UHGV virus genome: UHGV-0166683
Strand: one strand, 5' to 3'
DNA length: 15,589 nt
Source: a virus
Position 1 is the stretch's first letter. Every line of letters begins with the position of its first letter. The notes below the pieces were generated by a model, which was not told the origin of the DNA, made no database searches, and saw nothing but the letters and a program-made list of their open reading frames with translations. Below, in pieces: positions 1 to 15,589 of this stretch. The position numbers and the translations under genes are program-made.

Positions 1-43
1 TACTTCTAAGAATGAAAGCATCGAAAAAATCCATATTTTCTTT

Positions 44-895
44 ATGTGGAAAGATATCCTTTCATTAATTTCTGATCATCATAACAGTGACTGCTCTGTC
101 TTATTTTTCACCAATGAAGACAAAAGTTATACAGTCGAACTCACGCATTTTTTACAATATAGCGAGATTAATCGCTTATCGAACTCGTCTCTTAAATATG
201 AAATTATAAAGGAGCTTCTCGACACAATAAAAATCAATGATTTACACAAAAGCGAGCGCAAGCTCGTTATACGCTCAGCCATAAACGAAGTATTTAAAGC
301 AAATGGTACGTTCAATTTCTTTGACTTGCTTAACTCTACTGAACTCGTCAGGAAAAAATATGATGAACTATATGAGATTTACACAAAGAGGTTTTCTGTA
401 AATAAAATTCTTAACGAACTCGATGAGAAAAATCTTGAGTTCACGAGTAAAATTAACGAATTCATATCATCTAATCAGACAAAAGCATTGACTATTCCCG
501 GTGCATTAATAGCAGCTGGTGGCTTAGTGAAGGCTAATGAAACAACCGAAGCAATATTGATTATCGCAGGACTTTGGATGATAAAAAAAGTCAATTACAT
601 TTCTATTGAGATATTCAATGAAACATTCGACAACTTACGTTCTCGAGTGGAGTCCGCTTTCGATAAGTATTTAAAGTTTGAAGAAAATAAAGAAATCAAA
701 GATAATGCAGATAGTATTAAGAGTAGCATTACAGGTTTGATTGATAAAGCTAAAAAAAGGATGAGAACTGTTAAATATCTCGCATCAGCCATGTTTTATG
801 GAGGCCTTATTTACGTTGGATATAAACAGTTCCCAGTCTTTTTTGAAAAATCGGCAGTAAATCTATTTTATTTTTTATGCCATACTATAAGCTAA
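44..895 (+). CDS. Hypothetical AT-rich membrane-associated protein, function unknown (possible prophage moron or flanking-island gene)
   Basis: 283-codon ORF in strongly AT-rich DNA, where long ORFs are unlikely by chance. Predicted hydrophobic hairpin (ALTIPGALIAAGGLVKA ... AILIIAGLWMI) and a C-terminal hydrophobic stretch. Frame is open back to window position 2, so the true start may lie upstream of the window. 3' end overlaps the Q-like gene convergently by 21 bp. No family recognised by eye. Confidence 0.5.
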   Translation: MWKDILSLISDHHNSDCSVLFFTNEDKSYTVELTHFLQYSEINRLSNSSLKYEIIKELLDTIKINDLHKSERKLVIRSAINEVFKANGTFNFFDLLNSTELVRKKYDELYEIYTKRFSVNKILNELDEKNLEFTSKINEFISSNQTKALTIPGALIAAGGLVKANETTEAILIIAGLWMIKKVNYISIEIFNETFDNLRSRVESAFDKYLKFEENKEIKDNADSIKSSITGLIDKAKKRMRTVKYLASAMFYGGLIYVGYKQFPVFFEKSAVNLFYFLCHTIS

Positions 896-1246
896 CATTG
901 CTAAACAGCCATCAACAAACCCCATTGCAGTTTGCAGTTCCTTCCTAATTGTGCCATCAGAGCATTTTCTCTTCTTCGCAATAGTGCGTAATGAGATACC
1001 GATAACAAAGTGGGCGATGATGAGCTCATATTCCTCTGGTTTATACCTTCTCAACCGAGCCACACAACTGTCTATCATGATGCCTTCGTCATCATCACAC
1101 TGAATCCGTGACTTTTTGCCATGAGGTAAAAGTCCCTTGAAACCAGCCGCTATCGGCTGCCAGTCCACTCCGCTATTGTCTGAAGCAGCCCAAGCTCCCC
1201 AACGATCCATTACTTCATACATATCACGCATCAACTTTCTCCACAA
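875..1246 (-). CDS. Phage antitermination protein Q-like (small Q family, about 123 aa)
   Basis: Protein contains RWGAWAA ... W..IAAGFKGL ... CDDDEGI.IDSCVARL ... CSDGTIRKEL, which I recall as characteristic of the short Phage_antitermQ family. It is the last gene of the minus-strand early operon, as expected for Q. Confidence 0.7.
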   Translation of the reverse strand: MWRKLMRDMYEVMDRWGAWAASDNSGVDWQPIAAGFKGLLPHGKKSRIQCDDDEGIMIDSCVARLRRYKPEEYELIIAHFVIGISLRTIAKKRKCSDGTIRKELQTAMGFVDGCLAMLAYSMA

Positions 1247-1248
1247 AA

Positions 1249-2244
1249 TCAGGCCAACACACCAATTGCCAGCGCACGATCGATAAAACGAAATATCAAC
1301 TCCAGCTGGGAGCCATACTTCTCTTCAAATGCCACGGTATCCGCATGCAGCTCGTCGTGATGCTTTCTGCACAAAGGCAGCACAAAGAGATCATGCGCTT
1401 TTGTACCCATTCCCCCCTGACCGTGGCCTATCAGATGGTGGGGATCATCAGCAGGCTTTCCACAACATGCACACGGCTGCGTCTTAACCCAGCGCGTGTA
1501 CTTTTCATTAACCCAGCGGCGACGTTTTGGGCGTAACATAAAAGACTCCGGCGACTCCGGATCCACTTTCAGCGCCAGCACCTTTTTAGCTTTATCCTGG
1601 ATGATGCTGGTGGCAGGAACCGAAGGCACAAGGTCACTTTCCCGGGTGACAGATGGCACAACAGGCTTCGGTAATCTCAGTGCCTTACGGGCTGCACTTT
1701 CCGGTAAGGCATCCGCCAGATCATTACGAACCAGCCACCAGCACAGTTCCGGCATTGTCACAACGTGACTGTCATCAAAACCGAGATCCCGACGCACGAC
1801 AGACAACACCCAGCGGGCACAGTTATCCGTTGCCATTGATTCCAGCCGTTCCGTGAACTGGTCACGCAGCTGGTTATCGCAGTGCCAGCACAGACGAATT
1901 GCTCCCGGAGCGTGCCGCATTGTGGTCATGTTCTCGCTGTGCCAGTCAGAATGAGGCCACTGACAGCCCTTTTCACGAAGTAACCAGCTTTCAAGACATT
2001 CCACGCCACCAGCACGACGGATCACTGCCTCATTGCGGAACACGGTCCGAACGGCAGGATCATCCGCCAGCGGTTGTGATGCCGCCGGAACGGCACCACT
2101 GGCGAAAGATGAATAACGTTCCGGCTCTGGCTCCAGCAGGACACGCCCCTGCATAAACAGGGGCATCAGCTCTGAACCTGGCCTGAACAATACGATCCCC
2201 ATACGCGGGGCAATTTCAGGCGTCAGTAGTGCTCTCACGGTCAC
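1249..2244 (-). CDS. DUF968-family phage protein with HNH-like Cys/His motif (YdfU-like)
   Basis: 331-aa ORF. C-terminal CACCGKPADDPHHLIGHGQGGMGTKAHDLFVLPLCRKHHDELH is a Cys/His-rich HNH-like signature typical of DUF968 proteins found next to Q in lambdoid prophages. Start lies 2 bp from the upstream gene stop. Confidence 0.7.
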   Translation of the reverse strand: MTVRALLTPEIAPRMGIVLFRPGSELMPLFMQGRVLLEPEPERYSSFASGAVPAASQPLADDPAVRTVFRNEAVIRRAGGVECLESWLLREKGCQWPHSDWHSENMTTMRHAPGAIRLCWHCDNQLRDQFTERLESMATDNCARWVLSVVRRDLGFDDSHVVTMPELCWWLVRNDLADALPESAARKALRLPKPVVPSVTRESDLVPSVPATSIIQDKAKKVLALKVDPESPESFMLRPKRRRWVNEKYTRWVKTQPCACCGKPADDPHHLIGHGQGGMGTKAHDLFVLPLCRKHHDELHADTVAFEEKYGSQLELIFRFIDRALAIGVLA

Positions 2245-2245
2245 C

Positions 2246-3043
2246 TCAATGAACGGTATCGAGTAGCTTTAACAGCTCAGGGAATCGGGATTCGAAGAAA
2301 TGCGGCTGCGTCTCGCGCGGATTTGCGGGACTGGTGATGTTCTTGCCGAACATGCAGCCTTTCGCCGTCAGCGACCAGAATTTTTTGATGTTGTTAATCG
2401 CGGTACGGCTGTATCGTTCGCGCTGCTCGACGATCCCCAGCTTCACCATCTGGTGATATGCCTGATTAGCTGTCAGGCGGATACCATACTGCTTCAGCAG
2501 TGCACTCAGTGACAGCGTGGGGCGGCTTGAGCCATCAGGCGCGTCAGCAGGAGCATCAATGGCATAGCGCGGTGCCAGATTCGGTAAGCCAACAGCCTCC
2601 TGGAGTTTCTGACAGGCTCCAAGCACTGAAGAGTTAGACAGATTTAACTCCCGGCGCATAAAGTCCAGCAGAATCACGCCAGCCTGCATCTTGTCAGCAG
2701 CCTGTCCGGATAATTTTTCAGGTGCGCTGGTTACCATGTCGAAAGTACGGATCACCTTCAGATGGAATGACGGGCTGATCCACATTGCATAGGCATACAC
2801 CAGTTCTTTGCAGACATACGTCCCCTGGTTATTTCCGCCACGAATAACGTTAACTGGCTCTATATTGACCGAGTTGCAAATCTGCAACTCGCTTATTAAA
2901 CGTTCAGTTTGCTCATTGCGGAGCCAGAATGCAGGCTTATGCTTATCCAGAGAACCGGCAGCCCTGTGCAGATCGTTCAGGCTGTAACGACCATAAGCAT
3001 CACGACGAACTTCAATACCATCAATGACCATCAGATTATTCAT
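2246..3043 (-). CDS. KilA-N domain protein (putative antirepressor/DNA-binding protein)
   Basis: N-terminal about 100 aa (MNNLMVIDGIEVRRDAYGRYSLNDLHRAAG ... KPAFWLRNEQT ... YVCKELVYAYAMWISPSFHLKVIRTF) matches the KilA-N fold pattern. SD-like AGAGGAGA precedes the ATG at 3043-3041. Confidence 0.7.
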   Translation of the reverse strand: MNNLMVIDGIEVRRDAYGRYSLNDLHRAAGSLDKHKPAFWLRNEQTERLISELQICNSVNIEPVNVIRGGNNQGTYVCKELVYAYAMWISPSFHLKVIRTFDMVTSAPEKLSGQAADKMQAGVILLDFMRRELNLSNSSVLGACQKLQEAVGLPNLAPRYAIDAPADAPDGSSRPTLSLSALLKQYGIRLTANQAYHQMVKLGIVEQRERYSRTAINNIKKFWSLTAKGCMFGKNITSPANPRETQPHFFESRFPELLKLLDTVH

Positions 3044-3062
3044 ACTTCGTTTCTCCTCTTAA

Positions 3063-3452
3063 TCAGGCGGCTGCACCCGCCGGTTTCTCGTACTTACTGA
3101 TAGTGATCTCGACCTTCCCTTCCGGGATAACCGGTCCCCACTCCACCAGCATTCTTTTCACCTGACTGTCGTCTTCCCACACACCCGCGTGGGTCAGGGC
3201 GTCAAACAGCGCCTTGTTATAGTTGTCCAGATCGCGGATCCGGTTATCCGGAGGAAACAACACGATCTCCACTGAAGCTGGTGCCGACGTTGGTTTCGGC
3301 AGACGGCGTAACTGCTCAATGATGGCGGCACACGCCGCGCCCTGGAATTTACGCCCCGCCGCGCTTATCAGGCTCTTACCTGCAAAAGCCCCTTTGTTGG
3401 GGTGTCGCCAGTACGTGTTCACGCTGGGGGGAAACGGCAGGATCAGCTTCAT
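3063..3452 (-). CDS. rusA: Holliday junction resolvase RusA (crossover junction endodeoxyribonuclease)
   Basis: 129 aa. MKLILPFPPSVNTYWRH ... DLDNYNKALFDALTHAGVWEDDSQV matches the RusA signature (PPS.N.YWR, DxDN acidic catalytic motif, DAL...G...DD.Q). ATGA start/stop overlap with the upstream gene. Confidence 0.85.
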   Translation of the reverse strand: MKLILPFPPSVNTYWRHPNKGAFAGKSLISAAGRKFQGAACAAIIEQLRRLPKPTSAPASVEIVLFPPDNRIRDLDNYNKALFDALTHAGVWEDDSQVKRMLVEWGPVIPEGKVEITISKYEKPAGAAA

Positions 3453-3775
3453 ACTTTCAGGCCCCTCTCATGTAACCAGTGGGCTGCACGCAGCCTGGCG
3501 TTTTCCTCACCAGCAAGCAGTGCGCGGATAATCCCGGCCACCTCGCTGTCGTCGTCCTTCACCGCGGTATGAAGAGTTATCCCCCGGGCCACGCCACGCT
3601 TTATCGTGATGACGCCTTTTTTCTCCAGTGCGCGAAGATGCTCCACCGCTGCATTCACTGAACGGTATCCCAGCATGGTTGCCACCTCCTGATTGGTTGG
3701 CGGGAAGCCACGTTCTTTCTGGTAAGAAATCAGCATATCCAGCACCTGCTGCTGGCATTGAGTTAACGTCGTCAT
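3449..3775 (-). CDS. LexA N-terminal DNA-binding-domain-only protein (winged HTH, no S24 peptidase domain)
   Basis: 108 aa. MTTLTQCQQQVLDMLISYQKERGFPPTNQEVATMLGYRSVNAAVEHLRALEKKGVI aligns by eye with the LexA N-terminus ([56 protein letters not shown]). The protein ends before any Ser/Lys protease domain. ATGA overlaps at both ends. Confidence 0.7.
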   Translation of the reverse strand: MTTLTQCQQQVLDMLISYQKERGFPPTNQEVATMLGYRSVNAAVEHLRALEKKGVITIKRGVARGITLHTAVKDDDSEVAGIIRALLAGEENARLRAAHWLHERGLKV

Positions 3776-4425
3776 GCCGCCATCTCCCTGACCAGTTTTT
3801 CCGCCTGCTGGCGAACCTGCGCCAGAAAGGCCTCACCACATGCCTCAAGTTCATCGCGCCCGATGTAGCTGATTGCCGATCCCTTCCAGGTCTTGTCGAA
3901 AACAGCAATAGCACCAGCGAAGAAAGCACCTGTCGGCACCTGCTTCTCGTCCTTCGGTATAAACCAGGCAGGTAGTTCAAAACCAATACGCCCGCGAATA
4001 AAAGCAATATGATCTGCATCTTCCGGCCACCACACTTCGCTGGTAGCTGCTTTGATCAAGAAAACATAGCGCCCGCCTTTATCACGCATGGCACTGGCAT
4101 GCTTCATGATGTAACGCATGCCGGTGATGTATTGCCCCTCATGCTGACTGGCGCGGCTGTATGGGGGATTACCAAAGGCAGCACCTTTAAGCTCCGCAAG
4201 ACGTTCTGACCAGTCATGCGCCAGCGCGTTGTCTTCCGCCGTGTAATACGCGGCACATTTGGCGTTATCACCGTCAGTGAACAGATCCAGAACAAACGGG
4301 CCAAACAGGGTGTTAATTCCCCAGAAAATGTTGTCCGGCGTGCGCCACTGATCGCCCACTTCCTTCAGTTCATGGGCTGGTTTGTTCCGCAGTTCCACCA
4401 GCGCCTGCCAATATTTATTACTCAT
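3772..4425 (-). CDS. Phage DNA N6-adenine methyltransferase (Dam-like, YfdM-like)
   Basis: Contains the FGNPPY catalytic motif of N6-adenine methyltransferases. Start chosen at ATG 4425-4423, which overlaps the upstream stop (TAATG coupling); the six-frame ORF extends to 4458 (11 extra codons), so the start is ambiguous. Confidence 0.8.
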   Translation of the reverse strand: MSNKYWQALVELRNKPAHELKEVGDQWRTPDNIFWGINTLFGPFVLDLFTDGDNAKCAAYYTAEDNALAHDWSERLAELKGAAFGNPPYSRASQHEGQYITGMRYIMKHASAMRDKGGRYVFLIKAATSEVWWPEDADHIAFIRGRIGFELPAWFIPKDEKQVPTGAFFAGAIAVFDKTWKGSAISYIGRDELEACGEAFLAQVRQQAEKLVREMAA

Positions 4426-4919
4426 TAAGCCCCCACGTAATTCCCTGACAGATACCACTCATCACCCGATACAGCGCACTTGCTGCTTTTCCGTAAGCAC
4501 CGCTCACGGCGCGCCAGAAAATTGTTTCGTTCTGGCTGGGAGTGGCTTTCACGGAATGCCGCCATCCACACGGTTGCAGCACGACGGTATAAGCCCCTGG
4601 ACTCCAGTTCTTCAGCCTGGCGGGTCAGGCACAAAATTACCCGTGGATCGTTAGTGCCGACATAGAAATTGCGCACAGGTCTGGTTTCACGAACTGGTTG
4701 TGGTTCCGGCTCCTGCGCTCTCTCAGTCAGGCGCGGGAAATGTCTGCGTGTATCTCCTTCACAACGGTGAGCCACACGCCCACTCTGACGTAACTTGCTT
4801 GCTGACTGCAGAACGCGCTGCCGTGAGTAATCTGCAAAAGCATCCGCAATGTCTCCGGAAGTACACCCCGGATGGGCTTCAATGAATTTCTGAACGTCAT
4901 TTAACAGACTCATGATCAC
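4425..4919 (-). CDS. Putative regulatory protein, YfdN-like, with PerC-like C-terminal region
   Basis: 164-codon ORF (GTG at 4919 or ATG at 4913). C-terminal segment LTRQAEELESRGLYRRAATVWMAAF resembles the PerC/Pch-family core as I recall it. GTGA overlap with the replication gene stop. Confidence 0.55.
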   Translation of the reverse strand: MIMSLLNDVQKFIEAHPGCTSGDIADAFADYSRQRVLQSASKLRQSGRVAHRCEGDTRRHFPRLTERAQEPEPQPVRETRPVRNFYVGTNDPRVILCLTRQAEELESRGLYRRAATVWMAAFRESHSQPERNNFLARRERCLRKSSKCAVSGDEWYLSGNYVGA

Positions 4920-5857
4920 CCCCTGAATCCTGCCGGGATCTGGCTGTAGTCCACATTGTCGTAACTGGATTTGAAGTACGGGTCTTCGCGTTTTTCGGTG
5001 TACGTGCTTACGGACGGCGATAAGCGCAGGGAAAGCTCATCCCATTTTTCCCGCAGCTTCGACGGGCTGAGCACGTTACGGCACCAGAACGGATCGCGGC
5101 TGACGCGGCTGTACATCTCGCAGATTTGTTTGTGAGTACGACCATCCTGCACACACATCAGGCGAATTTCGTTTGCCCAGGCTGTCCAGTTCGGTTCTTT
5201 GGGACGAACCACCTCGCCGTCACATTCGGCAGCCTGCTCGTACAGGGCGATGATTTTTTTCCAGAGCCACTGTGCGCAGGTCAAATCATCCTGCGTCCCC
5301 CACTGGCGCTTTTTAGGGCTGAATACAACCGCATCAGGATGGCGAGTTAAAAAATCCTGTTCAGCCGTCTGCGTGTCCGGTTGCGAAGCGTCCGGACGAG
5401 AAGGTTTTTTATCTGACGGATCATGTTTTGATTTTACTGACGGATCCCCGCCAGATTCTGACGGGTGAAAACCTGCTTTTTTGCCAGATTTCGACGCATC
5501 AAATTTTGACGGGTCAGATTTTGATGCGTCAGATTTTGACGGGTCAGAATCTGACAGTTGAGAAAATGCCGCTGCCTGAAGCTTCGCAACGTTAAGCTGA
5601 TAAACATTCGACGCATTGCGGTTACCCTGGCGACGCGCCTTACGCGTTAACCAGCCTTCTGCTTCCAGCCGTGCGATAGCCGTTCTGACGGTACTCATCC
5701 CCGCGCCAATCTGACGGGCAATGGTTTCAATTGATGGCCAGCACACACCTTCGTCATTACTGAAATCAGCCAGGCGGGCCATAATTGCCACGCTGGATAA
5801 CTTCATGCCTGATGCAGCGCAACCATCCCATACATAGCCGGTTAATTTAGTGCTCAT
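4916..5857 (-). CDS. Phage replication initiation protein (O-like; N-terminal HTH, repeat-encoded linker)
   Basis: 313 aa. N-terminal region (WPSIETIARQIGAGMSTVRTAIARLEAEGWL) is HTH-like as in phage replication initiators. A central low-complexity linker SDPSKSDASKSDPSKFDASKS is encoded by 15-bp tandem repeats. SD AGAGG lies 6 nt upstream of the ATG at 5857-5855. Confidence 0.8.
   Translation of the reverse strand: MSTKLTGYVWDGCAASGMKLSSVAIMARLADFSNDEGVCWPSIETIARQIGAGMSTVRTAIARLEAEGWLTRKARRQGNRNASNVYQLNVAKLQAAAFSQLSDSDPSKSDASKSDPSKFDASKSGKKAGFHPSESGGDPSVKSKHDPSDKKPSRPDASQPDTQTAEQDFLTRHPDAVVFSPKKRQWGTQDDLTCAQWLWKKIIALYEQAAECDGEVVRPKEPNWTAWANEIRLMCVQDGRTHKQICEMYSRVSRDPFWCRNVLSPSKLREKWDELSLRLSPSVSTYTEKREDPYFKSSYDNVDYSQIPAGFRG
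5411..5556. repeat. Iteron-like 15-bp tandem repeats inside the replication initiator gene (candidate origin of replication)
   Basis: Three tight tandem copies TTTTGACGGGTCAGA / TTTTGATGCGTCAGA / TTTTGACGGGTCAGA at 5504-5548, plus degenerate copies containing CTGACGGAT/CTGACGGGT at 5413-5421, 5437-5445, 5458-5466 and 5490-5498. Confidence 0.5.
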
Positions 5858-5866
5858 GACCGACCT

Positions 5867-6205
5867 CTATTTCCCTGAATTTACGACGAAACTGTTCGAG
5901 CGGACTGAAGCATTCATGCTCATAACCTTCGCGGAGGTAGATAACCCGTTGTGTTTCCGGTTCCCAACGAATGACTCTGACGGGCACTCCGTAGTGATCT
6001 TTGAACCAGCGGTTAACTTGTCGCAAAGGACTGCCTCCTTCTGCCGGTTGAAATCACCCACAGCCCACTCTGCAAAGCTGTGGGTTACAATTTCCCTGTC
6101 ACCTGGTACATTCACTGCATAGCAATACTCCACCTTCGCTTTTCCACCCGGAACCGGAAGCGCAATCAGTTGCGAGCGACGGTAGTGTGTTGTTAAACTG
6201 TTCAT
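5867..6205 (-). CDS. Hypothetical small protein (112 aa) between the CII-like and replication genes
   Basis: Start ATG overlaps the stop of the upstream CII-like gene (ATGA at 6202-6205) and its stop lies 9 bp before the replication gene start, consistent with operon membership. Composition is not strongly protein-like and a competing plus-strand ORF exists, so confidence is low. Confidence 0.35.
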
Positions 6206-6765
6206 GCGTTAGTTTCTCCACAGTCACGACACGCCACGGCGCCCGGAGCTGCACACTCGCGGGCGTCACTACTTTCTGAAACGCAAAAGATTTTGTAGAC
6301 CAGTGCTGCATGCTCCTGCAGCTTCGAAATTGAGAGGTACAGCTCGTCGTTAATTGCTGTCTTCTCATGCGGTTCCACTACACCGTCTTCGATTGCTGAA
6401 CGAATCTGTTTTGAATAACTGCCGATCTGTTCAATGACCTCCAGCAGGCGTTGGTTGATATCGGCATTGTCCACATCCTCGACGTCAGGAAGAGACACAA
6501 AGACGCCATTTGCAGACTGCGCCACAGCATCAGCAATGAAGTGAGTGCCACCAGCACGCTGCAAAACCATTGCCCATCCCAGCGGGAAAATCTGATCGCC
6601 ATCTGCACGAAGGCGGTTGAATAAAGCGTTTTCTGTTACATCGAGCCAGTCAGCCGCTTCAGCGTAACCACCCGGCAACGCCGCGATAGTTTTTCTGACA
6701 GCTTTCACGTACCACTCAGGCTGTTTTTCTATTTTCCAGTGATGCTTACCCACGATTAGCCTCAT
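6202..6765 (-). CDS. Phage regulatory protein, CII-like (CP76-type architecture)
   Basis: 187 aa, second gene after cro-like. N-terminal HTH-like segment ([37 protein letters not shown]) followed by a helical C-terminal region, an arrangement I associate with CP76-type CII regulators. Family assignment is from memory. Confidence 0.55.
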
Positions 6766-6796
6766 CGTTCTGTGGTTAAAAATTGAAAGTGTTCTG

Positions 6797-6997
6797 CTAA
6801 TCTTTCGGATAGATATCCGGTCTTAAGTCAGATTTCGTAATTGCACCTGATGTGTATTGCTCAAGTTTTTTAGCCAGCACAAAACTGGCTTTTTTATAGC
6901 CATTGAAAACCAGCCGTAAGTAGCCAGGTGTTGAGCCAACTTTTCCGGCCAACTCGCCCTGCTGTTCTTTGGTTAAAGAGTCCCAATACGCTTTCAT
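6797..6997 (-). CDS. Cro/YdaS-like HTH regulator (66 aa)
   Basis: MKAYWDSLTKEQQGELAGKVGSTPGYLRLVFNGYKKASFVLAKKLEQYTSGAI is a small HTH protein divergent from the CI-like repressor. Start chosen at ATG 6997-6995, preceded by GGAGG. The longer ORF to 7300 would overlap the cI-like gene and the operators. Confidence 0.65.
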   Translation of the reverse strand: MKAYWDSLTKEQQGELAGKVGSTPGYLRLVFNGYKKASFVLAKKLEQYTSGAITKSDLRPDIYPKD

Positions 6998-7087
6998 ACA
7001 ATATGTACCTCCGGTGTACATATTACATGATTGAAATGAACCTTCAAGATACTTGTACCTTAACGGTACAAGGGTTTTAATTTCGTT
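6998..7087. promoter_or_regulatory. Immunity control region (oR-like) between divergent cro-like and cI-like genes, with two 17-bp operators
   Basis: Two 17-bp sites of form TGTACC-N5-KGTACA: TGTACCTCCGGTGTACA (7004-7020) and TGTACCTTAACGGTACA (7054-7070). The second sits inside a perfect 8-bp-arm palindrome CTTGTACC-TTAAC-GGTACAAG (7052-7072). Candidate pR -35/-10 on the minus strand (CTTCAA 7042-7047, ATATTA 7020-7025 as written on plus). Confidence 0.5.
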
Positions 7088-7762
7088 ATGAAAACAATCC
7101 ATGACATCCGGCGGTCTAACGCCAGAAAACTGAGAGATGGTGTTGGCGGGAATTCTTCCTTTGCCACTATGATTGATCGCGAGCCAACCCAGACCAGCAG
7201 GTTTATGGGAGATGGTGCTACTAAAAATATCGGTGACAGCATGGCACGACACATCGAAAAATGTTTCGACCTGCCTGTAGGATGGCTCGATCAAGAACAC
7301 CAGACAACGAACATCACAAAAAAACCTGATGTTTCAATCACTAATAAACAAATCACATTAGTCCCTGTCATATCATGGGTACAGGCCGGAGCATGGAAAG
7401 AAGTTGGATATTCTGAGGTTGATTTGAGCACAGCAGAAACGTATCCCTGCCCTGTACCCTGTGGGGAAATGACTTATATCTTGCGGGTGATAGGTGATTC
7501 AATGATTGATGAGTACCGCCCGGGAGACATGATTTTTGTCGATCCTGAAGTACCTGCCTGCCACGGTGACGACGTTATTGCATTGATGCACGATACAGGT
7601 GAAACCACCTTCAAAAGGTTGATAGAAGATGGGACACAGCGTTATCTCAAAGCGTTAAACCCAAACTGGCCTGAGCCTTACATTAAGATCAACGGTAATT
7701 GCTCTATAATTGGTACTGTGATTTTCTCAGGAAAACCAAGAAGATACAAAATCAAAGCCTAA
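7088..7762 (+). CDS. CI-like prophage repressor (N-terminal HTH plus C-terminal S24 LexA-like autopeptidase domain)
   Basis: 224 aa. HTH-like N-terminus. C-terminal domain has an Ala-Gly cleavage-site candidate (VQAGAW), the catalytic Ser context (VIGDSM) and Lys context (TFKRL), typical of RecA-stimulated self-cleaving repressors. No SD before the ATG, so the mRNA may be leaderless as for lambda cI. Confidence 0.8.
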   Translation: MKTIHDIRRSNARKLRDGVGGNSSFATMIDREPTQTSRFMGDGATKNIGDSMARHIEKCFDLPVGWLDQEHQTTNITKKPDVSITNKQITLVPVISWVQAGAWKEVGYSEVDLSTAETYPCPVPCGEMTYILRVIGDSMIDEYRPGDMIFVDPEVPACHGDDVIALMHDTGETTFKRLIEDGTQRYLKALNPNWPEPYIKINGNCSIIGTVIFSGKPRRYKIKA

Positions 7763-7774
7763 TCAATGTTTATG

Positions 7775-7797
7775 AACCTGCTTCGGCAGGTTTTTTT
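7775..7797 (+). terminator. Rho-independent terminator downstream of the cI-like gene
   Basis: AACCTGC-TTCG-GCAGGTT: 7-bp stem with a TTCG tetraloop, running into a 7-T tract (7791-7797), 13 bp after the cI-like stop. Confidence 0.7.
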
Positions 7798-7801
7798 ATA
7801 C

Positions 7802-7829
7802 TTGACAATGTGCCTTTGAGATACATAAT
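7802..7829 (+). promoter_or_regulatory. Candidate sigma70 early-left (pL-like) promoter
   Basis: TTGACA (7802-7807), 16-bp spacer, CATAAT (7824-7829). An operator half-site TGTACC (7829-7834) abuts the -10, and a degenerate TGTGC-N7-ATACA lies in the spacer. Located just after the cI terminator and about 100 bp upstream of the first plus-strand early gene. Confidence 0.45.
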
Positions 7830-7935
7830 GTACCCAAGAGAAACAACAAACAGGCAGGACGCCCACGAAGTAGCCGCCTGGGGCATATGAAGTCCAGGAT
7901 GATTCGTTAGCGGATGATTTCAGTGGAGAGAATAG

Positions 7936-8244
7936 ATGAATGAGCAGGATTTGAAGCATGTGATCGCATTGTTGCTGGAAGACGCTAAACGTTTGCAGCA
8001 GATAGAGCCAAATGCAGGCACTGAGGCCCGTATTTTGTTAGCAAAACAGGCATTAAAGACTTGCGAGGCGCAAGACCCTGATCGAACCAAGTTCATGAAT
8101 TTCATGGCTAACACGATCACCCCACTGCCATGCAATGGAGAGAGGGTGAGCCGTGTTTATCACGACACAATGGTTAAGGCATTAAGAATCGAGCTTGATG
8201 GGCTTAGGCGTAAGATCGTGATGAACAAAATCGTTGCCAACTAA
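7936..8244 (+). CDS. Hypothetical early-left protein (102 aa)
   Basis: SD GGAGAG 7 nt upstream of ATG 7936; first ORF downstream of the pL-like promoter. No recognisable domain; not Arg-rich like lambda N. Confidence 0.5.
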   Translation: MNEQDLKHVIALLLEDAKRLQQIEPNAGTEARILLAKQALKTCEAQDPDRTKFMNFMANTITPLPCNGERVSRVYHDTMVKALRIELDGLRRKIVMNKIVAN

Positions 8245-8523
8245 GGAAGCAGACGGAAGTAAGCATGCGCTTTGTTCAAATTTGCAGACAAATATATTTG
8301 CGTCAACACCAGCACTGTTAGCAATGGAAAAAGTTTGATCAAGGATTTGTTGGCAGTTCATTGTGCTTTTGAGGATATATCCCTCTGGAATCAGTCTGCA
8401 GCAGCTATCGTCAGACTCTTTGATTGTTTTCTGGTACAGAAAGTTAAGCATTAATTCTTCAAATTTTTTGGTCTGTTCGGCTGTTGCTTCAAACAGACGA
8501 ACGTGAACATAAAACTGGTTCAT
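8182..8523 (-). CDS. Hypothetical protein (113 aa from internal Met; ORF extends to 8559)
   Basis: AGGA SD (AAGGAAACCTA-ATG) before ATG 8523-8521. Protein-like composition (FYVHVRLFEATAEQTKKFEELMLNFLYQ). Overlaps the 3' end of the 7936-8244 ORF convergently by 63 bp, so one of the two may be spurious. Confidence 0.4.
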   Translation of the reverse strand: MNQFYVHVRLFEATAEQTKKFEELMLNFLYQKTIKESDDSCCRLIPEGYILKSTMNCQQILDQTFSIANSAGVDANIFVCKFEQSACLLPSASLVGNDFVHHDLTPKPIKLDS

Positions 8524-8665
8524 TAGGTTTCCTTGCTGGCTGTGTGAGAACTCCAGCATACCACCGAGCCTGAAGTGGTGAAAAGACAGGCAATAGTTTC
8601 ATTGCTGTGTGTAGTCCTGGCGGTACCAGTTTGTACCCTTGCTTCCGGCTGGTACCGCTCTTTTT

Positions 8666-8754
8666 ACAAAACAGAGAAGAGCATCACCGGACGACGGGCT
8701 CATAACCCAATCCATCCGGGCGGCTGCCACCGCAGGTGTTCTTCTCTGTTTTGT
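8666..8754. repeat. Perfect 15-bp inverted repeat pair with 59-bp spacer in a divergent intergenic region
   Basis: ACAAAACAGAGAAGA (8666-8680) and its exact reverse complement TCTTCTCTGTTTTGT (8740-8754), with partial extension of complementarity. Spacer is GC-rich with internal self-complementarity. Confidence 0.45.
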
Positions 8755-8802
8755 GGAGAAACCAACCGACCTTGCAGGGTCGATATGATGAGGAGCAGCA
8801 AA

Positions 8803-9165
8803 ATGGCTAGCGAACGCGGTACTGATGTGCAGGCATTTATCGGGGAGCTGGACGGCGGCGTATTTGAAACCAAAATCGGCGCAGTTCTCAGTGAAGTCGC
8901 TTCCGGTGTGATGAACACGAAAACCAAAGGTAAGGTCTCACTCAACCTGGAAATCGAACCATTTGATGAGAACCGTGTGAAAATCAAACACAAACTCTCA
9001 TATGTTCGCCCGACTAACCGCGGGAAAATTTCCGAAGAAGACACCACCGAAACGCCGATGTATGTCAATCGCGGTGGGCGCCTGACTATTCTGCAGGAAG
9101 ACCAGGGACAATTACTGACTCTTGCCGGTGAGCCTGACGGAAAACTCCGCGCAGCAGGTCATTAA
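8803..9165 (+). CDS. Hypothetical early-left protein (120 aa; position corresponds to YfdP-like gene upstream of yfdQ)
   Basis: Strong SD AGGAG (8791-8795), 7 nt before ATG 8803. The upstream in-frame extension back to 8575 is Cys/Arg-rich and lacks an RBS, so it was rejected. Confidence 0.6.
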   Translation: MASERGTDVQAFIGELDGGVFETKIGAVLSEVASGVMNTKTKGKVSLNLEIEPFDENRVKIKHKLSYVRPTNRGKISEEDTTETPMYVNRGGRLTILQEDQGQLLTLAGEPDGKLRAAGH

Positions 9166-9230
9166 TATCGTTCTTAATTAACTGATTATTTACCTCATCA
9201 CTGAATATCTTTATATAGTGAGGACTTATT

Positions 9231-10055
9231 ATGTCTCAGAACTTAGACGCAACCGCAATTAATCAAATCCATGCCCTTATTTCTGCTCAGGGTGTTAATG
9301 AAATTATCAGTAAGATTGGTGCCGACGCAGTGGCATTACCTGAAAATTTCCGCATTCATGATCTGGAAAAATTTAATTTAAATCGCTTCCGTTTCCGTGG
9401 CGCGCTTTCCACTGCCTGCATCGATGACTTTACCCGTTATTCTAAAGATCTTGCAGATGAAGGCACCCGCTGCTTTATCGATGCCGATAATATGCGTGCC
9501 GTCAGTGTTCTTAACCTGGGTACTATTGATGAACCAGGTCACGCAGATAATACCGCCACTCTCAAACTGAAAAAGACAGCACCGTTCTCTGCACTGTTGT
9601 CTGTTAACGGCGAGCGTAACTCCCAGAAGTCACTGGCAGAATGGATTGAAGACTGGGCCGACTACCTTGTGGGCTTTGATGCTAATGGTGACGCCATTCA
9701 GGCAACCAAAGCGGCTGCGGCGATCCGTAAAATCACAATTGAAGCGAACCTGACTGCTGATTTTGAAGACAATGACTTCAGCGGCAAACGCTCCCTGATG
9801 GAGTCTGTCGAAGCGAAGACCAAAGACATTATGCCAGTGGCATTTGAATTTAAATGCGTTCCGTTTGAAGGCCTGAAAGAACGTCCGTTTAAATTACGCC
9901 TCAGCATTATCACTGGCGATCGTCCTGTACTGGTACTACGCATTATTCAGCTGGAAGCAGTGCAGGAGGAAATGGCTAACGAATTTCGTGATCTGCTTGT
10001 TGATAAATTCAAAGACAGCAAAGTAGAAACCTTTATTGGTACTTTCACCGCCTGA
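9231..10055 (+). CDS. yfdQ: YfdQ-like protein (DUF2303 family), function unknown
   Basis: 274-aa ORF with SD GAGGA before the ATG. Length, position immediately upstream of an HD-domain YfdR-like gene, and the sequence as I recall it match CPS-53 prophage YfdQ. Confidence 0.7.
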
Positions 10056-10067
10056 TTTCATTACTGC

Positions 10068-10089
10068 AAATGCCCCTGCGGGGGCATTT
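10068..10089 (+). terminator. GC-rich stem-loop downstream of yfdQ-like gene (possible attenuator or weak terminator)
   Basis: AAATGCCCC-TGCG-GGGGCATTT: 9-bp perfect stem starting 13 bp after the stop codon. Only a short U-rich tail (TTTAT), so likely partial termination or an RNA stability element. Confidence 0.35.
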
Positions 10090-10183
10090 ATGGAAACGTA
10101 ATTGACTCAATAATCGCCTGATGGCGAGGGTTTTCTTTAACCAAAATTCAGCGCGGTGCAGCGCATATAACGTGGAGAACAAA

Positions 10184-10720
10184 ATGTCATTTATTAAAAC
10201 TTTTTCCGGGAAGCATTTTTATTATGACAAGATAAATAAAGACGACATCGTTATTAACGATATCGCGGTTTCCCTTTCAAATATCTGCCGCTTTGCAGGA
10301 CACCTTTCACACTTCTATAGCGTCGCCCAACATGCGGTGCTTTGCAGCATGCTGGTACCGCAGGAATTTGCTTTTGAAGCATTAATGCATGATGCAACAG
10401 AAGCGTATTGCCAGGACATTCCCGCACCACTGAAACGCCTTCTTCCTGACTATAAACGGATGGAAGAAAAAATAGACGCCGTAATCCGTGAGAAATACGG
10501 GTTACCTCAGGCTATGAGCACGCCCGTGAAATATGCCGATCTCATCATGCTGGCAACCGAACGCCGCGATCTCGGGCTTGATGATGGCTCTTTCTGGCCA
10601 GTATTGGAAGGTATCCCGGCAACAGAGATGTTCGAAGTTGTTCCTCTGGCTCCTGGCCATGCCTACGAGATATTTATGGAACGTTTTAAAGAGCTGCATA
10701 AGATACATAAGCAATCCTGA
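10184..10720 (+). CDS. yfdR: YfdR-like HD-domain protein (5'-deoxynucleotidase family)
   Basis: 178 aa from ATG 10184 (SD GGAG 6 nt upstream; ORF track begins at 10121). HD-domain motifs present: H..H (GHLSHFYSVAQHA) and HD (LMHDATEAY). Confidence 0.75.
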   Translation: MSFIKTFSGKHFYYDKINKDDIVINDIAVSLSNICRFAGHLSHFYSVAQHAVLCSMLVPQEFAFEALMHDATEAYCQDIPAPLKRLLPDYKRMEEKIDAVIREKYGLPQAMSTPVKYADLIMLATERRDLGLDDGSFWPVLEGIPATEMFEVVPLAPGHAYEIFMERFKELHKIHKQS

Positions 10721-10775
10721 CAGCGAAATTAACTAGTGAAATAGTTTTGTAGCAAAAGAAATGAGGTTATCAAAA

Positions 10776-11021
10776 ATGCTTCAAATGCTGACACTTGAGG
10801 AATGGGCTGCGGAAAAATTTAGGAGTAATCCTCCAAGTGTGTCCACATTGCGTCGTTATGCTAAGCAGAATTTATTTTGTCCACCAGCAATGAAACAAGG
10901 TCGACTCTGGCGAGTACGTGAGGACGCAGAGTTAGTTGGGGAATTAGTTACTCCAGTAATCAAGAAAAGTGATTCTATTATTCTGCAAAGGATTTTAAGC
11001 AATGGCAGCCAGACCACGTAA
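10776..11021 (+). CDS. xis: Excisionase (lambda Xis-like)
   Basis: MLTLEEWAAEKFRSNPPSVSTLRRYAKQNLFCPPAMKQGRLWRVREDAEL parallels lambda Xis (MYLTLQEWNARQRRPRSLETVRRWVRE..FPPPVKDGREYLFHESA). Overlaps the int start by 20 bp as in lambda. Start ambiguous among ATG 10761, 10776 and 10785. Confidence 0.75.
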   Translation: MLQMLTLEEWAAEKFRSNPPSVSTLRRYAKQNLFCPPAMKQGRLWRVREDAELVGELVTPVIKKSDSIILQRILSNGSQTT

Positions 11022-12129
11022 AAATAATGTTTCAGTACCTAACTTGTATCCGCTTTATAGTAGAAAAGTAAATAAAGTCTATTGGCGATATAAGCATCCA
11101 GTGACCGGGAAATTTCATTCGTTGGGCACAAATGAAGCTGAAGCTATTGCTATTGCCACTGAAGCTAACACTCGTCTGGCTGAGCAAAGAACCCGGCAGA
11201 TTCTAGCTATCAGTGATAGGATCGCAACCAGCAAAGGAAAAGCGATCACAACGTCAACCTGGTTAGATCGCTATCAAGCGATCCAGGATGACAGGCTCAA
11301 AAGTGGTGATATAAGACTCAACACCTATAAGCAAAAAGCTAAACCAGTATCCTTGCTCAGAGAACGAGCAGGAATGAAGTTGATCTCATCCGTTGATGTT
11401 AGAGATATAGCACAATTGCTTGATGAGTATATTGCAGCTGGACAGCCTAGAATGGCCCAAGTCGTTAGGTCTGTATTGATCGATGTGTTTAAGGAAGCAC
11501 AGCATTATGGCGAAGTTCCGCCAGGGTATAACCCTGCTCTTGCGACGAAGCAACCCAAAAGAAAAATTACCCGTCAACGCCTCAGCCTGGAAGAATGGCA
11601 AAAAATATTCGATATAGCAGACGCCAGTCATCGTTACATGGGAAATGCCATGCTCCTAGCTTTGGTCACTGGGCAGCGTTTGGGAGATATATCCAAAATG
11701 AAATTTAGTGATATTTGGGAAGATCATCTTCACGTCATTCAGGAAAAGACTGGAAGCAAAATCGCTATCCCTCTTTCTCTTCGCCTCAATGCGATTAACT
11801 GGAGTTTACGCGATGTAATAGCCCGCTGCCGTGACTATGCAGTCAGCCCATACCTAGTGCATTTTTTCCGTTCAACTTCACAAGCAGAACGTGGGGCACA
11901 GGTTAAATCCAATACATTGACGATGAACTTTAGTAAAGCGAGAGATTTAGCAGGAATTGACTGGGGTGATGGCTCACCCGCAACATTCCATGAACAAAGA
12001 TCGTTATCTGAACGCCTGTACAAGGAGCAAGGGATAGATACCAGAAAGCTACTTGGGCATAAAACACAACAACAAACCGATCGTTACCATGATGACCGAG
12101 GGAAAGGTTGGAGCAAAGTAGCTTTGTGA
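11002..12129 (+). CDS. int: Tyrosine site-specific integrase (lambda Int family)
   Basis: 375 aa. C-terminal catalytic region HEQRSLSERLYKEQGIDTRKLLGHKTQQQTDRYHDDRGKGW matches lambda Int (HELRSLSARLY ... LLGHKSDTMASQYRDDRG), including the conserved His and catalytic Tyr. Preceded by and overlapping xis. Confidence 0.9.
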   Translation: MAARPRKNNVSVPNLYPLYSRKVNKVYWRYKHPVTGKFHSLGTNEAEAIAIATEANTRLAEQRTRQILAISDRIATSKGKAITTSTWLDRYQAIQDDRLKSGDIRLNTYKQKAKPVSLLRERAGMKLISSVDVRDIAQLLDEYIAAGQPRMAQVVRSVLIDVFKEAQHYGEVPPGYNPALATKQPKRKITRQRLSLEEWQKIFDIADASHRYMGNAMLLALVTGQRLGDISKMKFSDIWEDHLHVIQEKTGSKIAIPLSLRLNAINWSLRDVIARCRDYAVSPYLVHFFRSTSQAERGAQVKSNTLTMNFSKARDLAGIDWGDGSPATFHEQRSLSERLYKEQGIDTRKLLGHKTQQQTDRYHDDRGKGWSKVAL

Positions 12130-12340
12130 GCGTTTAAGTTTCTCAATCCCACATTAATTATCTCATCACACATGTAACAGGCCCAAACAGACTGCTCTGA
12201 GCGACGAACCGTTGTTGACCAGTAACGCCATAGAGTATATTCAGTAAGTGTTCCAATGTATATAAGAAATGCGCTGTGTATATTTTTAATTCAAAATAGT
12301 TTGAAGCACAATCATGAAACAGATTCTTATGAATACAAAA

Positions 12341-13456: not shown

Positions 13457-14163
13457 AAAACCTCCTTTGGTCAGAGTATACATCCTTATTTCTGGCTCTT
13501 CAATTCTATTGTCAAAAACTTTTACAAAGTCTGCATCAGTAAAACTGATGGCGCATTTTAAAATTAAAATCAATATGTCCATATCAAACGTTATATTTGT
13601 TATTTTTTGTATTTATTATTCATATCCATCATGTGCTATTAAATCGCCCAAAAGAACATAATAAATTATGTGCACCACTTTCTTCTTATTGAATTTTGGA
13701 TTACATTACGATCTAAATTAGATCTTTTGCCAATATCATAAACATATGCAGCAAACGTTGCAACAAGCTGTTCTCATTCTAACAGTTAGTAGAATATAAA
13801 CTCTGTAATTAGCACACTGAATTCCCTTCATCTATGAGTTACAACATCCTTTAAGTGAATAGTATTGTTAGTTTAAATCTATTAATATCATTCATAAAAC
13901 TATTTTATATAGTTAAAGTCATTATAAATCCATCTGAATATATACAGATGGATTCTGCCAATAGTCTTTGCAGGTGAAGTGCATGTTATATATTTTTTAG
14001 GGAATATATTTTCTAATTATTTCTCAGATAAAAATTTGCAGAACGAAATTACTTTACATAATACCGAATGTTACAGATTATTTTATTGCATATAAGCATT
14101 GAACTAACCACTATCACAGTGACTATGTTAATCATAAAATCTGCATCAAATTCAAAAAGCTCC

Positions 14164-15510: not shown

Positions 15511-15525
15511 GTACTGATGAATCCC

Positions 15526-15549
15526 CTAATGATTTTGGTAAAAATCATT
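15526..15549 (-). promoter_or_regulatory. Perfect 10-bp-arm inverted repeat 16-39 bp upstream of the darT-like start (candidate operator or 5'UTR hairpin)
   Basis: TAATGATTTT-GGTA-AAAATCATTA (arms 15526-15535 and 15540-15549), immediately upstream of the SD-like GGGGA and the ATG at 15510. Confidence 0.4.
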
Positions 15550-15589
15550 AAGTTAAGGTGGATACACATCTTGTCATATGATCAAATGG

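What the first reader, a model, noticed from the sequence alone, without database searches (positions are those of the whole stretch)
44..895. AT-rich membrane-protein gene convergent on Q where the late/lysis genes should begin
Downstream of Q one expects the late promoter, qut site and lysis cassette on the same strand. Instead an AT-rich 283-codon ORF on the opposite strand overlaps the Q 3' end by 21 bp. This is either a moron inserted at the classic cargo position downstream of Q (as toxin genes are in some lambdoid phages) or evidence that the prophage is truncated after Q and abuts foreign island DNA. The protein has a two-helix hydrophobic hairpin and coiled-coil-like regions, compatible with a membrane-acting abortive-infection or exclusion factor, though that is speculative.
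Basis: partly seen in the sequence, partly recalled or inferred. Interest (0 to 1): 0.5.

Follow-up and report, generated by a model that had tools for sequence, protein, structure and literature searches.

The report
Known anti-phage gene beside prophage Q
The AT-rich reverse-strand gene next to the prophage Q gene is the cut-off end of a two-gene phage-defence system (DS-1) that has already been published and tested, carried as cargo in an intact prophage, so it is real but not new.

Summary
The ORF is real: 32.5% GC against 49% for the prophage backbone, convergent on Q, with a 21-bp overlap. It is cut by the window edge. The frame is open from base 2, and the ATG at 44 is an internal Met. 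The true gene has 404 codons.

The fragment alone passes NCBIfam equivalog NF053869 ("DS1_2_antiphage"). It differs at one residue from WP_000150292.1, the second gene of DS-1. DS-1 was validated experimentally by DeWeirdt, Mahoney & Laub (Science 2026): Bas1 EOP was below 1e-7, and Bas26, Bas3, T3, T5 and T7 were also restricted.

Its obligate partner lies just upstream, outside the window. This is a zinc-ribbon plus YejK/NA37 nucleoid-associated protein (identical to WP_000355468.1 in the closest genome). The pair had this arrangement in 16 of 16 loci examined.

In the closest genomes the cassette sits antisense between Q and a conserved late-promoter/terminator block. Holin, lysozyme and structural genes follow, so the prophage is not truncated. 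Related prophages carry other cargo in the same slot.

The architecture matches "type II PANGU", a nucleoid-protein sensor paired with a membrane effector that acts by abortive infection. Sequence identity with that system could not be checked.

Verdict: already known, low interest.

The parts
2..895 (+). 3' part of the DS-1B gene (residues 108-404 of 404, plus the stop at 893-895). This is the membrane effector of the DS-1 anti-phage system. The first 107 codons lie outside the window.
   Evidence: The frame is open from base 2. The fragment scores 323.9 bits on NCBIfam NF053869 DS1_2_antiphage (cut-off 315); the full-length protein scores 375.3 bits. It is identical to WP_000150293.1 of APEC O2-211 over the fragment. 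It differs at one residue, S131A, from the experimentally tested WP_000150292.1.
338..484 (+). Long juxtamembrane helix (residues 220-268). This is the most conserved stretch of the family: KKYDELYEIYTKRFSVNKILNELDEKNLEFTSKINEFISSNQTK.
   Evidence: Alignment A4 of 49 homologues has invariant Y227, S239, N241, K242, E246, K257, Q266 and K268. AlphaFold2 predicts a helix at 220-268.
485..607 (+). Hydrophobic hairpin: two short helices, ALTIPGALIAAGGLVK and EAILIIAGLWMIKK, joined by the loop ANETT. Predicted to be the membrane-inserted element.
   Evidence: Kyte-Doolittle maxima fall at 269-283 and 290-309. The model has helices at 271-284 and from 288. A269, P273, A275 and A278 are invariant.
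608..775 (+). Amphipathic, coiled-coil-like helical region (residues 310-365), predicted cytoplasmic.
   Evidence: The model has helices at 288-331 and 337-383. The segment has net charge +2 and is rich in K and E.
776..892 (+). C-terminal aromatic and hydrophobic helices (residues 366-404). A possible third and fourth membrane segment. Poorly conserved beyond about residue 383.
   Evidence: The model has helices up to 383 and at 385-403. The alignment shows a conserved hydrophobic LAxxMFxGGxxYL followed by variable tails.
875..1231 (-). Antiterminator Q gene of the prophage. The last roughly 7 codons lie in cassette-specific DNA.
   Evidence: PF06530 match, E 3.2e-47. Annotated as an antiterminator Q family protein. 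Homology among Q alleles ends inside the last codons.
875..895 (.). 21-bp tail-to-tail overlap of DS-1B and Q. This is the left junction of the cargo cassette, and it has no terminator hairpin.
   Evidence: Coordinates. Four other cargo variants have an 8-12 bp G+C-rich hairpin here, whereas the DS-1 junction folds no better than shuffled sequence. No + strand terminator-like site was found in 896-2300.

Best explanation
The ORF is the C-terminal three quarters of DS-1B. DS-1B is the membrane effector of the two-gene anti-phage system DS-1. The system is carried as a low-GC moron, antisense, between the Q gene and the late promoter of an intact e14-like lambdoid prophage integrated beside icd.

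Shown here:
- Family membership, and one-residue difference from the tested protein.
- In the closest genomes, an upstream and probably translationally coupled partner DS-1A: an N-terminal zinc ribbon plus a YejK/NA37 nucleoid-associated domain.
- A-B linkage in 16 of 16 loci across Enterobacterales, Pseudomonas and marine gammaproteobacteria.
- The cassette boundaries, and an intact lysis and structural region beyond them.

Shown by others for the near-identical pair (identical A, B one residue different):
- On a low-copy plasmid with its native promoter it restricts Bas1 (no plaques), Bas26, Bas3, T3, T5 and T7.

Inferred mechanism, by analogy with type II PANGU, which has the same architecture:
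1. In uninfected cells DS-1A sits on the nucleoid, and DS-1B is held inactive in the inner membrane by its hydrophobic hairpin.
2. Phages that degrade host DNA release DS-1A.
3. Free DS-1A binds the mildly acidic N-terminal domain of DS-1B.
4. DS-1B then oligomerises or opens through its strongly conserved juxtamembrane helix and Gly/Ala-rich hairpin and damages the membrane.
5. The infection aborts.

Steps 4 and 5, the membrane damage itself, have not been shown by anyone.
For: Identity:
- NF053869 scores 375 bits for the full-length protein and 324 bits for the window fragment (cut-off 315).
- The partner scores 451 bits on NF053868.
- The accessions are listed as TU D390 = DS-1 in Tables S6, S8 and S11 of PMC13092281.
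- EOP data are in Table S7.

Partner fold:
- Pfam NA37 match, E 1e-23.
- PDB YejK 9be2: E 1e-9 by sequence and 4.5e-15 by fold. It was the only significant hit.

Linkage:
- 16 of 16 loci have the arrangement.

Architecture of DS-1B:
- The AlphaFold2 model has mean pLDDT 85: an alpha/beta N-domain at 1-218, then long helices with a hydrophobic hairpin.
- The N-domain is acidic in all 49 homologues examined, with net charge -1 to -19.

Context:
- The cassette is 34.8% GC.
- A conserved promoter/terminator block and the holin lie beyond it.
- The slot holds alternative cargo in related prophages.

Mechanism by analogy:
- The preprint 10.64898/2026.04.06.716658 covers Pag2A/Pag2B. It reports that both genes are required, an abortive-infection phenotype, escape through denA, a KD of 19 nM between Pag2A and the Pag2B N-domain, and relocalisation of Pag2A.
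- From my own knowledge, the phages DS-1 restricts (T1-like, T5-like and T7-like) all degrade host DNA.
Against: - The sequences of the PANGU type II systems are not held, so equivalence of DS-1 and PANGU-Ecu is not demonstrated.
- The reported host ranges differ. PANGU-Ecu blocks T4 and not T1 or T5. DS-1 has no T4 entry in the part of Table S7 read here, and it does restrict T5 and the T1-like Bas1. Expression levels also differed between the two studies.
- The N-domain is only mildly acidic (pI 5.2). That is weaker than classic DNA mimics.
- The hydrophobic segments are short (about 15 residues), and only one passes a 19-residue hydropathy threshold.
- No mutants or mechanism for DS-1 itself have been published.
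Confidence: 0.8

Rival explanations
1. Superinfection exclusion at the membrane. DS-1B blocks DNA entry or an early envelope step of incoming phages directly and the cell survives. DS-1A acts only as a regulator or chaperone.
For: The protein is prophage-encoded and membrane-associated. Bas1 gives no plaques at all (-log EOP 7.6), which is typical of entry blocks. The DS-1 paper reports no toxicity or abortive-infection data.
Against: The restricted phages use different receptors and ejection machineries (T1-like, T5-like and T7-like). Strict co-inheritance with a cytoplasmic DNA-binding YejK homologue (16 of 16 loci) is hard to explain for an entry block. Small-plaque phenotypes fit a post-entry or abortive mechanism better. 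The type II PANGU systems of the same architecture behave as abortive infection.
Confidence: 0.1
2. A classical toxin-antitoxin pair. DS-1B is a membrane toxin that is continuously neutralised by DS-1A, and it is released when phage shuts off host expression.
For: It is a two-gene operon with a membrane protein. Many prophage abortive-infection modules are TA systems. In strain MDR_56 the A gene is frameshifted while B is intact, which shows that B alone can be tolerated or is silent.
Against: That same MDR_56 observation argues against B being toxic without A. For the analogous PANGU operons, neither gene alone was toxic and A acts as an activator. The gene order, sensor first, and the large sizes (391 and 404 aa) are atypical for TA pairs.
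Confidence: 0.05
3. The prophage is truncated after Q, and the ORF belongs to unrelated island DNA or is a non-functional remnant.
For: The window itself stops inside the gene, so nothing beyond it is visible. There is a sharp GC drop at the Q stop.
Against: All genomes that match the window at 99.9-100% continue with DS-1A, a conserved late-promoter/terminator block, holin, lysozyme, Rz-like genes, terminase, portal, capsid and tail genes. The gene is intact and conserved in about 100 complete E. coli genomes and in other genera.
Confidence: 0.02

Closest known systems
DS-1 (DefensePredictor system 1, lab code D390; DeWeirdt, Mahoney & Laub, Science 2026, PMC13092281); NCBIfam NF053868/NF053869
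   Same: It is the same two genes. In the closest genome DS-1A is identical to WP_000355468.1. DS-1B differs from WP_000150292.1 at one residue. Both pass the equivalog cut-offs.
   Different: Nothing of substance differs. The window holds only residues 108-404 of DS-1B, and this allele is WP_000150293.1. The paper gives host range only, with no mechanism, mutants or genomic context.
Type II PANGU (Pag2A YejK-like NAP + Pag2B transmembrane effector; Li et al., bioRxiv 10.64898/2026.04.06.716658)
   Same: It is a bicistronic operon with the YejK-like protein first. The effector has a soluble acidic N-terminal domain and a C-terminal membrane region. It occurs in E. coli and is anti-phage.
   Different: Sequence equivalence is unverified. 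The reported host ranges differ: PANGU acts on T4 and Bas34 but not T1 or T5, whereas DS-1 acts on T1-like Bas1, T5-like Bas26, T5, T3 and T7. DS-1A carries an N-terminal zinc ribbon that is not mentioned in the text of the preprint that I read. The acidity of the DS-1B N-domain is modest.
Kiwa (KwaA membrane protein + KwaB DNA-binding protein)
   Same: It works in a broadly similar way on paper: a membrane protein paired with a DNA-binding protein in a two-gene defence operon.
   Different: There is no homology. There are no PADLOC or Pfam DUF4868 hits, and the only fold match of DS-1A is YejK. The gene order is reversed.
Q-downstream cargo of lambdoid phages (for example the stx genes of Stx phages)
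   Same: The cargo sits between Q and the lysis cassette of a lambdoid prophage.
   Different: From my own knowledge, stx lies downstream of pR'/tR' in the sense orientation and is expressed with the late operon. Here the cargo lies between the Q stop and the putative pR'. It is antisense and has its own promoter-like site, so it is presumably expressed in the lysogen.
ClyA-family alpha-pore-forming toxins and CorA channels
   Same: The C-terminal half of DS-1B is modelled as long helices carrying a short hydrophobic hairpin, an arrangement these proteins also have. They recur among the weak fold matches.

Membership tests
DS-1 anti-phage system (NCBIfam NF053869 / NF053868) | The effector protein matches the equivalog model DS1_2_antiphage above its curated cut-off. 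| tested here: met
   Full length: 375.3 bits against a cut-off of 315. The window fragment alone: 323.9 bits.
DS-1 anti-phage system (NCBIfam NF053869 / NF053868) | A YejK/NA37 partner gene lies immediately upstream on the same strand and matches DS1_1_antiphage. | tested here: met
   It lies outside the window but is present in the genomes identical over window 1-895: 451.4 bits against a cut-off of 330. The two genes are 2 nt apart. The arrangement held in 16 of 16 loci.
DS-1 anti-phage system (NCBIfam NF053869 / NF053868) | Near-identity to the experimentally tested transcription unit (WP_000355468.1 + WP_000150292.1). | tested here: met
   A has the same accession in APEC O2-211. B differs only at S131A.
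DS-1 anti-phage system (NCBIfam NF053869 / NF053868) | The system confers phage resistance when expressed. | not testable with these tools
   Published for the near-identical pair: Bas1 7.6, Bas26 2.7, Bas3 1.7, T3 1.7, T5 1.0 and T7 0.9 logs (Table S7).
Type II PANGU (Pag2A/Pag2B) | A YejK-like nucleoid-associated protein acts as the sensor component. | tested here: met
   Pfam NA37, E 1.2e-23. YejK 9be2, E 1.1e-9 by sequence and 4.5e-15 by fold.
Type II PANGU (Pag2A/Pag2B) | The effector has a C-terminal transmembrane region. | tested here: met
   There is a hydrophobic hairpin at 269-305 and hydrophobic helices at 366-403. The segments are short, and no dedicated TM predictor was available.
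Type II PANGU (Pag2A/Pag2B) | The effector has an N-terminal acidic DNA-mimicking (DMK) domain that binds the NAP. | tested here: inconclusive
   The N-domain has net charge -8 and pI 5.2, and it is acidic across the family. Surface charge pattern and binding could not be examined.
Type II PANGU (Pag2A/Pag2B) | Sequence homology to the characterised Pag2A/Pag2B (PANGU-Ecu). | not testable with these tools
   The preprint's sequences are in a supplementary table that is not held.
Type II PANGU (Pag2A/Pag2B) | Both genes are required, the phenotype is abortive infection, and the trigger is phage-induced host-DNA degradation. | not testable with these tools
   Reported for PANGU-Ecu only.
Kiwa | A KwaB (DUF4868) DNA-binding partner and a KwaA four-TM protein. 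| tested here: not met
   No PADLOC hit for either protein. No DUF4868 in Pfam. The fold search of DS-1A returns only YejK.
ClyA-family alpha-pore-forming toxins / CorA channels | Significant structural similarity over the helical bundle and the membrane hairpin. | tested here: not met

The most novel reading that the evidence does not exclude
Two points remain open.

(1) The effector may be a new kind of inner-membrane pore or channel. Its long helical bundle and Gly/Ala-rich hairpin would be opened by binding of a DNA-free nucleoid protein. The preprint on the analogous system states that how the sensor activates its effector remains to be determined.

(2) The cassette lies antisense between Q and the late promoter. 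Unlike the four other cargo variants examined in this slot, it has no terminator at the Q junction. Early-right transcription through Q during the prophage's own induction would therefore collide with and silence DS-1. That would spare the prophage from its own abortive-infection system. Conversely, DS-1 transcription in the lysogen would make antisense RNA against Q.
Probability: 0.15. Interest if true: 0.5.

Novelty: already known. Interest (0 to 1): 0.2.

Why it matters
For the scan, the finding resolves to a correct but already catalogued call. NCBI already names this protein 'anti-phage protein' in recent annotations, and the gene pair has been validated experimentally.

This analysis adds context that the DS-1 paper does not describe:
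- In E. coli the system rides in a variable cargo slot between the Q gene and the late promoter of e14-like prophages.
- It is always antisense there.
- It has strict A-B linkage across genera.
- The effector's most conserved element is the juxtamembrane helix plus the first hairpin helix.

How a YejK-like protein switches on a membrane effector is still an open mechanistic question, and these points could guide experiments on it.

Tried and rejected
- Pfam gave no family for the protein, either as the window fragment or at full length.
- PADLOC-DB 2023 gave no hit for either DS-1 protein, because the library predates the system.
- An HMM search of the PDB with the DS-1B family alignment found nothing (best E 6).
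- Kiwa-like homology was considered, since Kiwa also pairs a membrane protein with a DNA-binding protein. It was rejected because DS-1A matches only YejK by fold and neither protein hits Kiwa models.
- A tblastn of DS-1B against 50,697 deposited phage genomes found no match, so no sequenced free phage in that collection carries it.
- I tried to confirm that PANGU-Ecu equals DS-1. The preprint holds no accessions or sequences in its text, and no supplements are held.
- The reading 'truncated prophage' was rejected.

Full report
**Observation**

The window is the early region of a lambdoid prophage.
- The integrase gene is at 11002-12129 (+), and a cI/LexA-like repressor gene (ymfK) is at 7088-7762 (+).
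- The early-right operon runs on the - strand. It includes RusA, KilA-N and DUF968 genes and ends with an antiterminator Q gene (PF06530, E 3e-47) at 875-1231.
- A + strand ORF ends at 895 and overlaps the Q 3' end by 21 bp.
- The region 1-895 is 32.5% GC, against 49.0% for 896-12130.

So the core observation holds. The '283 codons from 44', however, is an edge artefact. The frame is open from base 2. In all near-identical E. coli genomes the gene has 404 codons and begins 319 bp upstream of the window. Window 1-895 is identical to E. coli APEC O2-211.

**What it is**

The full-length protein has no Pfam family and no PADLOC-2023 hit. It does pass the NCBIfam equivalog NF053869 'DS1_2_antiphage' (375 bits, cut-off 315). 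The gene immediately upstream passes NF053868 'DS1_1_antiphage, nucleoid-associated anti-phage protein' (451 bits). The 297-residue window fragment alone also passes NF053869 (324 bits).

The name traces to DeWeirdt, Mahoney & Laub, 'DefensePredictor' (Science 2026, PMC13092281).
- Tables S6, S8 and S11 list the transcription unit WP_000355468.1 (YejK/NA37 domain) plus WP_000150292.1 (404-aa hypothetical protein) as clone D390 = DS-1.
- Table S7 gives its activity in MG1655 from a low-copy plasmid with the native promoter region, as -log EOP: Bas1 7.6 (no plaques), Bas26 2.7, Bas3 1.7, T3 1.7, T5 1.0, T7 0.9. SECphi27 gave only smaller plaques.
- The main text mentions only that a 'YejK nucleoid-associated domain' was newly validated in defence. 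It gives no mutants and no mechanism for DS-1.

In APEC O2-211 the A protein has the same accession as the tested one. The B protein (WP_000150293.1, the window's allele) differs at one residue, S131 versus A131.

**Genomic anatomy**

The order in the closest genomes is as follows:
- icd;
- a DarT-HD gene and a macro-domain gene;
- intE and xisE;
- the early region;
- Q;
- DS-1B and DS-1A, both antisense;
- a 292-bp spacer;
- lambda-family holin, lysozyme and Rz-like genes;
- iss;
- HNH, terminase, portal, protease, capsid and myovirus-type tail genes.

The prophage is therefore not truncated.

Related prophages share the Q and holin flanks but carry different antisense cargo between them:
- a TIGR04255 protein with two hypothetical proteins;
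- two hypothetical proteins;
- a TIR protein, which matches PADLOC TIR-TM;
- an SDH Clp-fold protease.

Aligning the flanks gives both junctions.
- Right junction: a block of about 240 bp upstream of the holin is conserved in all five. It begins about 60 bp beyond the DS-1A start codon.
- That block contains a stem-loop, AAACCCGCC-ATCG-AGCGGGTTTTGTCGTTTCT. Its loop varies while its stem is kept.
- I read the block as the late promoter, qut site and tR' terminator. This is an inference. It is supported by its position and by the way its first bases co-vary with the Q allele.
- Left junction: homology ends inside the last roughly 7 codons of Q.
- The 21-bp overlap is therefore the cassette junction itself.

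A sigma-70-like site (TTGATA, 16 nt spacer, AAAAAT) lies 26-53 bp upstream of the DS-1A ATG, in cassette-specific DNA. The two DS-1 genes are 2 nt apart.

The four other cargo variants have an 8-12 bp G+C-rich hairpin between the Q stop and the cargo stop. The DS-1 junction has none, and no + strand terminator-like site follows within 1.4 kb.

**The family**

DS-1B has 69 homologue clusters at 90% identity. Most are in Enterobacterales; others are in Pseudoalteromonas, Pseudoteredinibacter and relatives. A P. aeruginosa copy sits beside a Pf filamentous prophage: 28% identity, hhalign probability 100%, and it passes NF053869.

In 16 of 16 loci examined, a DS-1A homologue lies directly upstream on the same strand. 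These comprise 12 GTDB species representatives and 4 others. One of the 16 is degraded and one is cut by a contig end. The Pseudescherichia copy is also convergent on a Q gene. E. coli and Klebsiella episomal records likewise place it next to Q. No deposited free phage genome carries it.

About 100 of 5,426 complete E. coli genomes have the cassette. In strain MDR_56 the A gene carries a 1-nt deletion.

**Structure**

DS-1A:
- The AlphaFold2 model has mean pLDDT 86.6.
- It is an N-terminal CxxC...CxxC zinc ribbon followed by a YejK fold.
- E. coli YejK (9be2) is the only significant PDB match, at E 4.5e-15 by fold and 1e-9 by sequence.

DS-1B:
- The model has mean pLDDT 85.1.
- Residues 1-218 form an alpha/beta domain.
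- A 49-residue helix follows (220-268), then a short hydrophobic hairpin (271-284 and 288-about 305).
- Two further long helices (to 331, and 337-383) and a terminal helix complete the protein.

The most conserved part of the family is the juxtamembrane helix plus the first hairpin helix. Invariant residues are Y227, S239, N241, K242, E246, K257, Q266, K268, A269, P273, A275 and A278. This suggests a functional gate or interface rather than a simple anchor.

The N-domain is mildly acidic (net charge -8, pI 5.2). It is acidic in all 49 homologues.

Fold searches gave only generic helical-bundle matches. CorA and ClyA-family pore formers recur among them but are not significant.

**Mechanism**

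A 2026 preprint (Li et al., 10.64898/2026.04.06.716658) defines 'PANGU' systems. In these, a YejK-like nucleoid protein leaves the nucleoid when phage nucleases degrade host DNA, and it then binds a DNA-mimicking domain of an effector.

Type II PANGU pairs the nucleoid protein Pag2A with Pag2B. The preprint reports the following:
- Pag2B has an N-terminal acidic domain and a C-terminal transmembrane domain.
- Both genes are needed, and neither is toxic alone.
- Protection is abortive.
- T4 escapes through denA mutations.
- Pag2A binds the Pag2B N-domain with KD 19 nM.
- How the membrane effector is activated is left open.

DS-1 has the same architecture, so this is the most likely mechanism. 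The set of phages DS-1 restricts (T1-like, T5-like and T7-like) fits a host-DNA-degradation trigger, since all of them degrade host DNA; this last point rests on my own knowledge.

I could not verify sequence equivalence, because no sequences are held. The reported host ranges also differ. I therefore file the gene firmly under DS-1 and only provisionally under type II PANGU.

**Verdict**

The 'truncated prophage' alternative is wrong. The thing itself is already known and experimentally validated, so interest is low.

Two questions remain open. One is the effector's mode of action. The other is the meaning of the antisense, terminator-less placement against Q.

Noticed in passing
window 12341-13582 (-) and 14164-15510 (-): A second low-GC (34%) defence-like module lies between the integrase and icd. 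One gene is a 448-aa DarT ADP-ribosyltransferase fused to a C-terminal HD domain (Pfam DarT E 5e-40, HD E 3e-6). The other is a 413-aa macro-domain, DarG-like protein with an extra C-terminal half that has no family match. Both fall below the NCBIfam DarT/DarG equivalog cut-offs, so this is a DarTG variant.
   Followed up: partly
window 15514-15589: The last 76 bases are the terminal end of an IS10/ISVsa5-type IS4-family element. It is inserted 3 bp upstream of the DarT-HD start codon. The closest genomes lack this insertion. In strain MDR_56 the same gene is split by IS50R, so this toxin-like gene has been hit by IS elements independently at least twice.
   Followed up: partly
L003 15712-19058; L004-L007 (outside the window, to the left of base 1): The interval between the Q stop and the conserved block upstream of the holin is a variable cargo slot in this prophage family, and the cargo is always antisense to Q in the five variants examined. 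The cargos seen are DS-1, TIR-TM, TIGR04255 with two hypothetical genes, an SDH Clp-fold protease and two hypothetical genes. Most of these are uncharacterised candidates for defence genes.
   Followed up: partly
window 860-960; L004-L007 Q/cargo junctions: Four cargo variants have a strong G+C-rich hairpin (bidirectional-terminator-like) between the Q stop and the cargo stop. The DS-1 variant has none and overlaps Q by 21 bp instead, so convergent transcripts of Q and DS-1 should overlap.
   Followed up: partly
L003 18499-18731 (alignment A1): The first bases of the conserved block upstream of the holin differ in step with the Q allele. CTAACGCGTACGCAAAAA goes with the window-type Q. CTCACGCGGTCCGCAGAAA goes with the Q alleles that are 49-53% identical. 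This is what a Q-binding element would be expected to do.
   Followed up: no
L001 18504-19680: In E. coli MDR_56 the DS-1A gene carries a 1-nt deletion that truncates the protein at about residue 250, while DS-1B stays intact. This is a natural case of the effector gene persisting without its partner.
   Followed up: yes
L009-L011 5001-7422: In Pseudomonas aeruginosa the DS-1 homologue pair lies directly beside a Pf-type filamentous prophage (Zot and DUF2523 genes). This is a different mobile context from the lambdoid slot.
   Followed up: partly
L003 20031-20321 (outside the window): The same prophage carries iss (the increased serum survival lipoprotein, bor-like) antisense just after the lysis genes. 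This is a second moron, with relevance to virulence in avian pathogenic E. coli.
   Followed up: no
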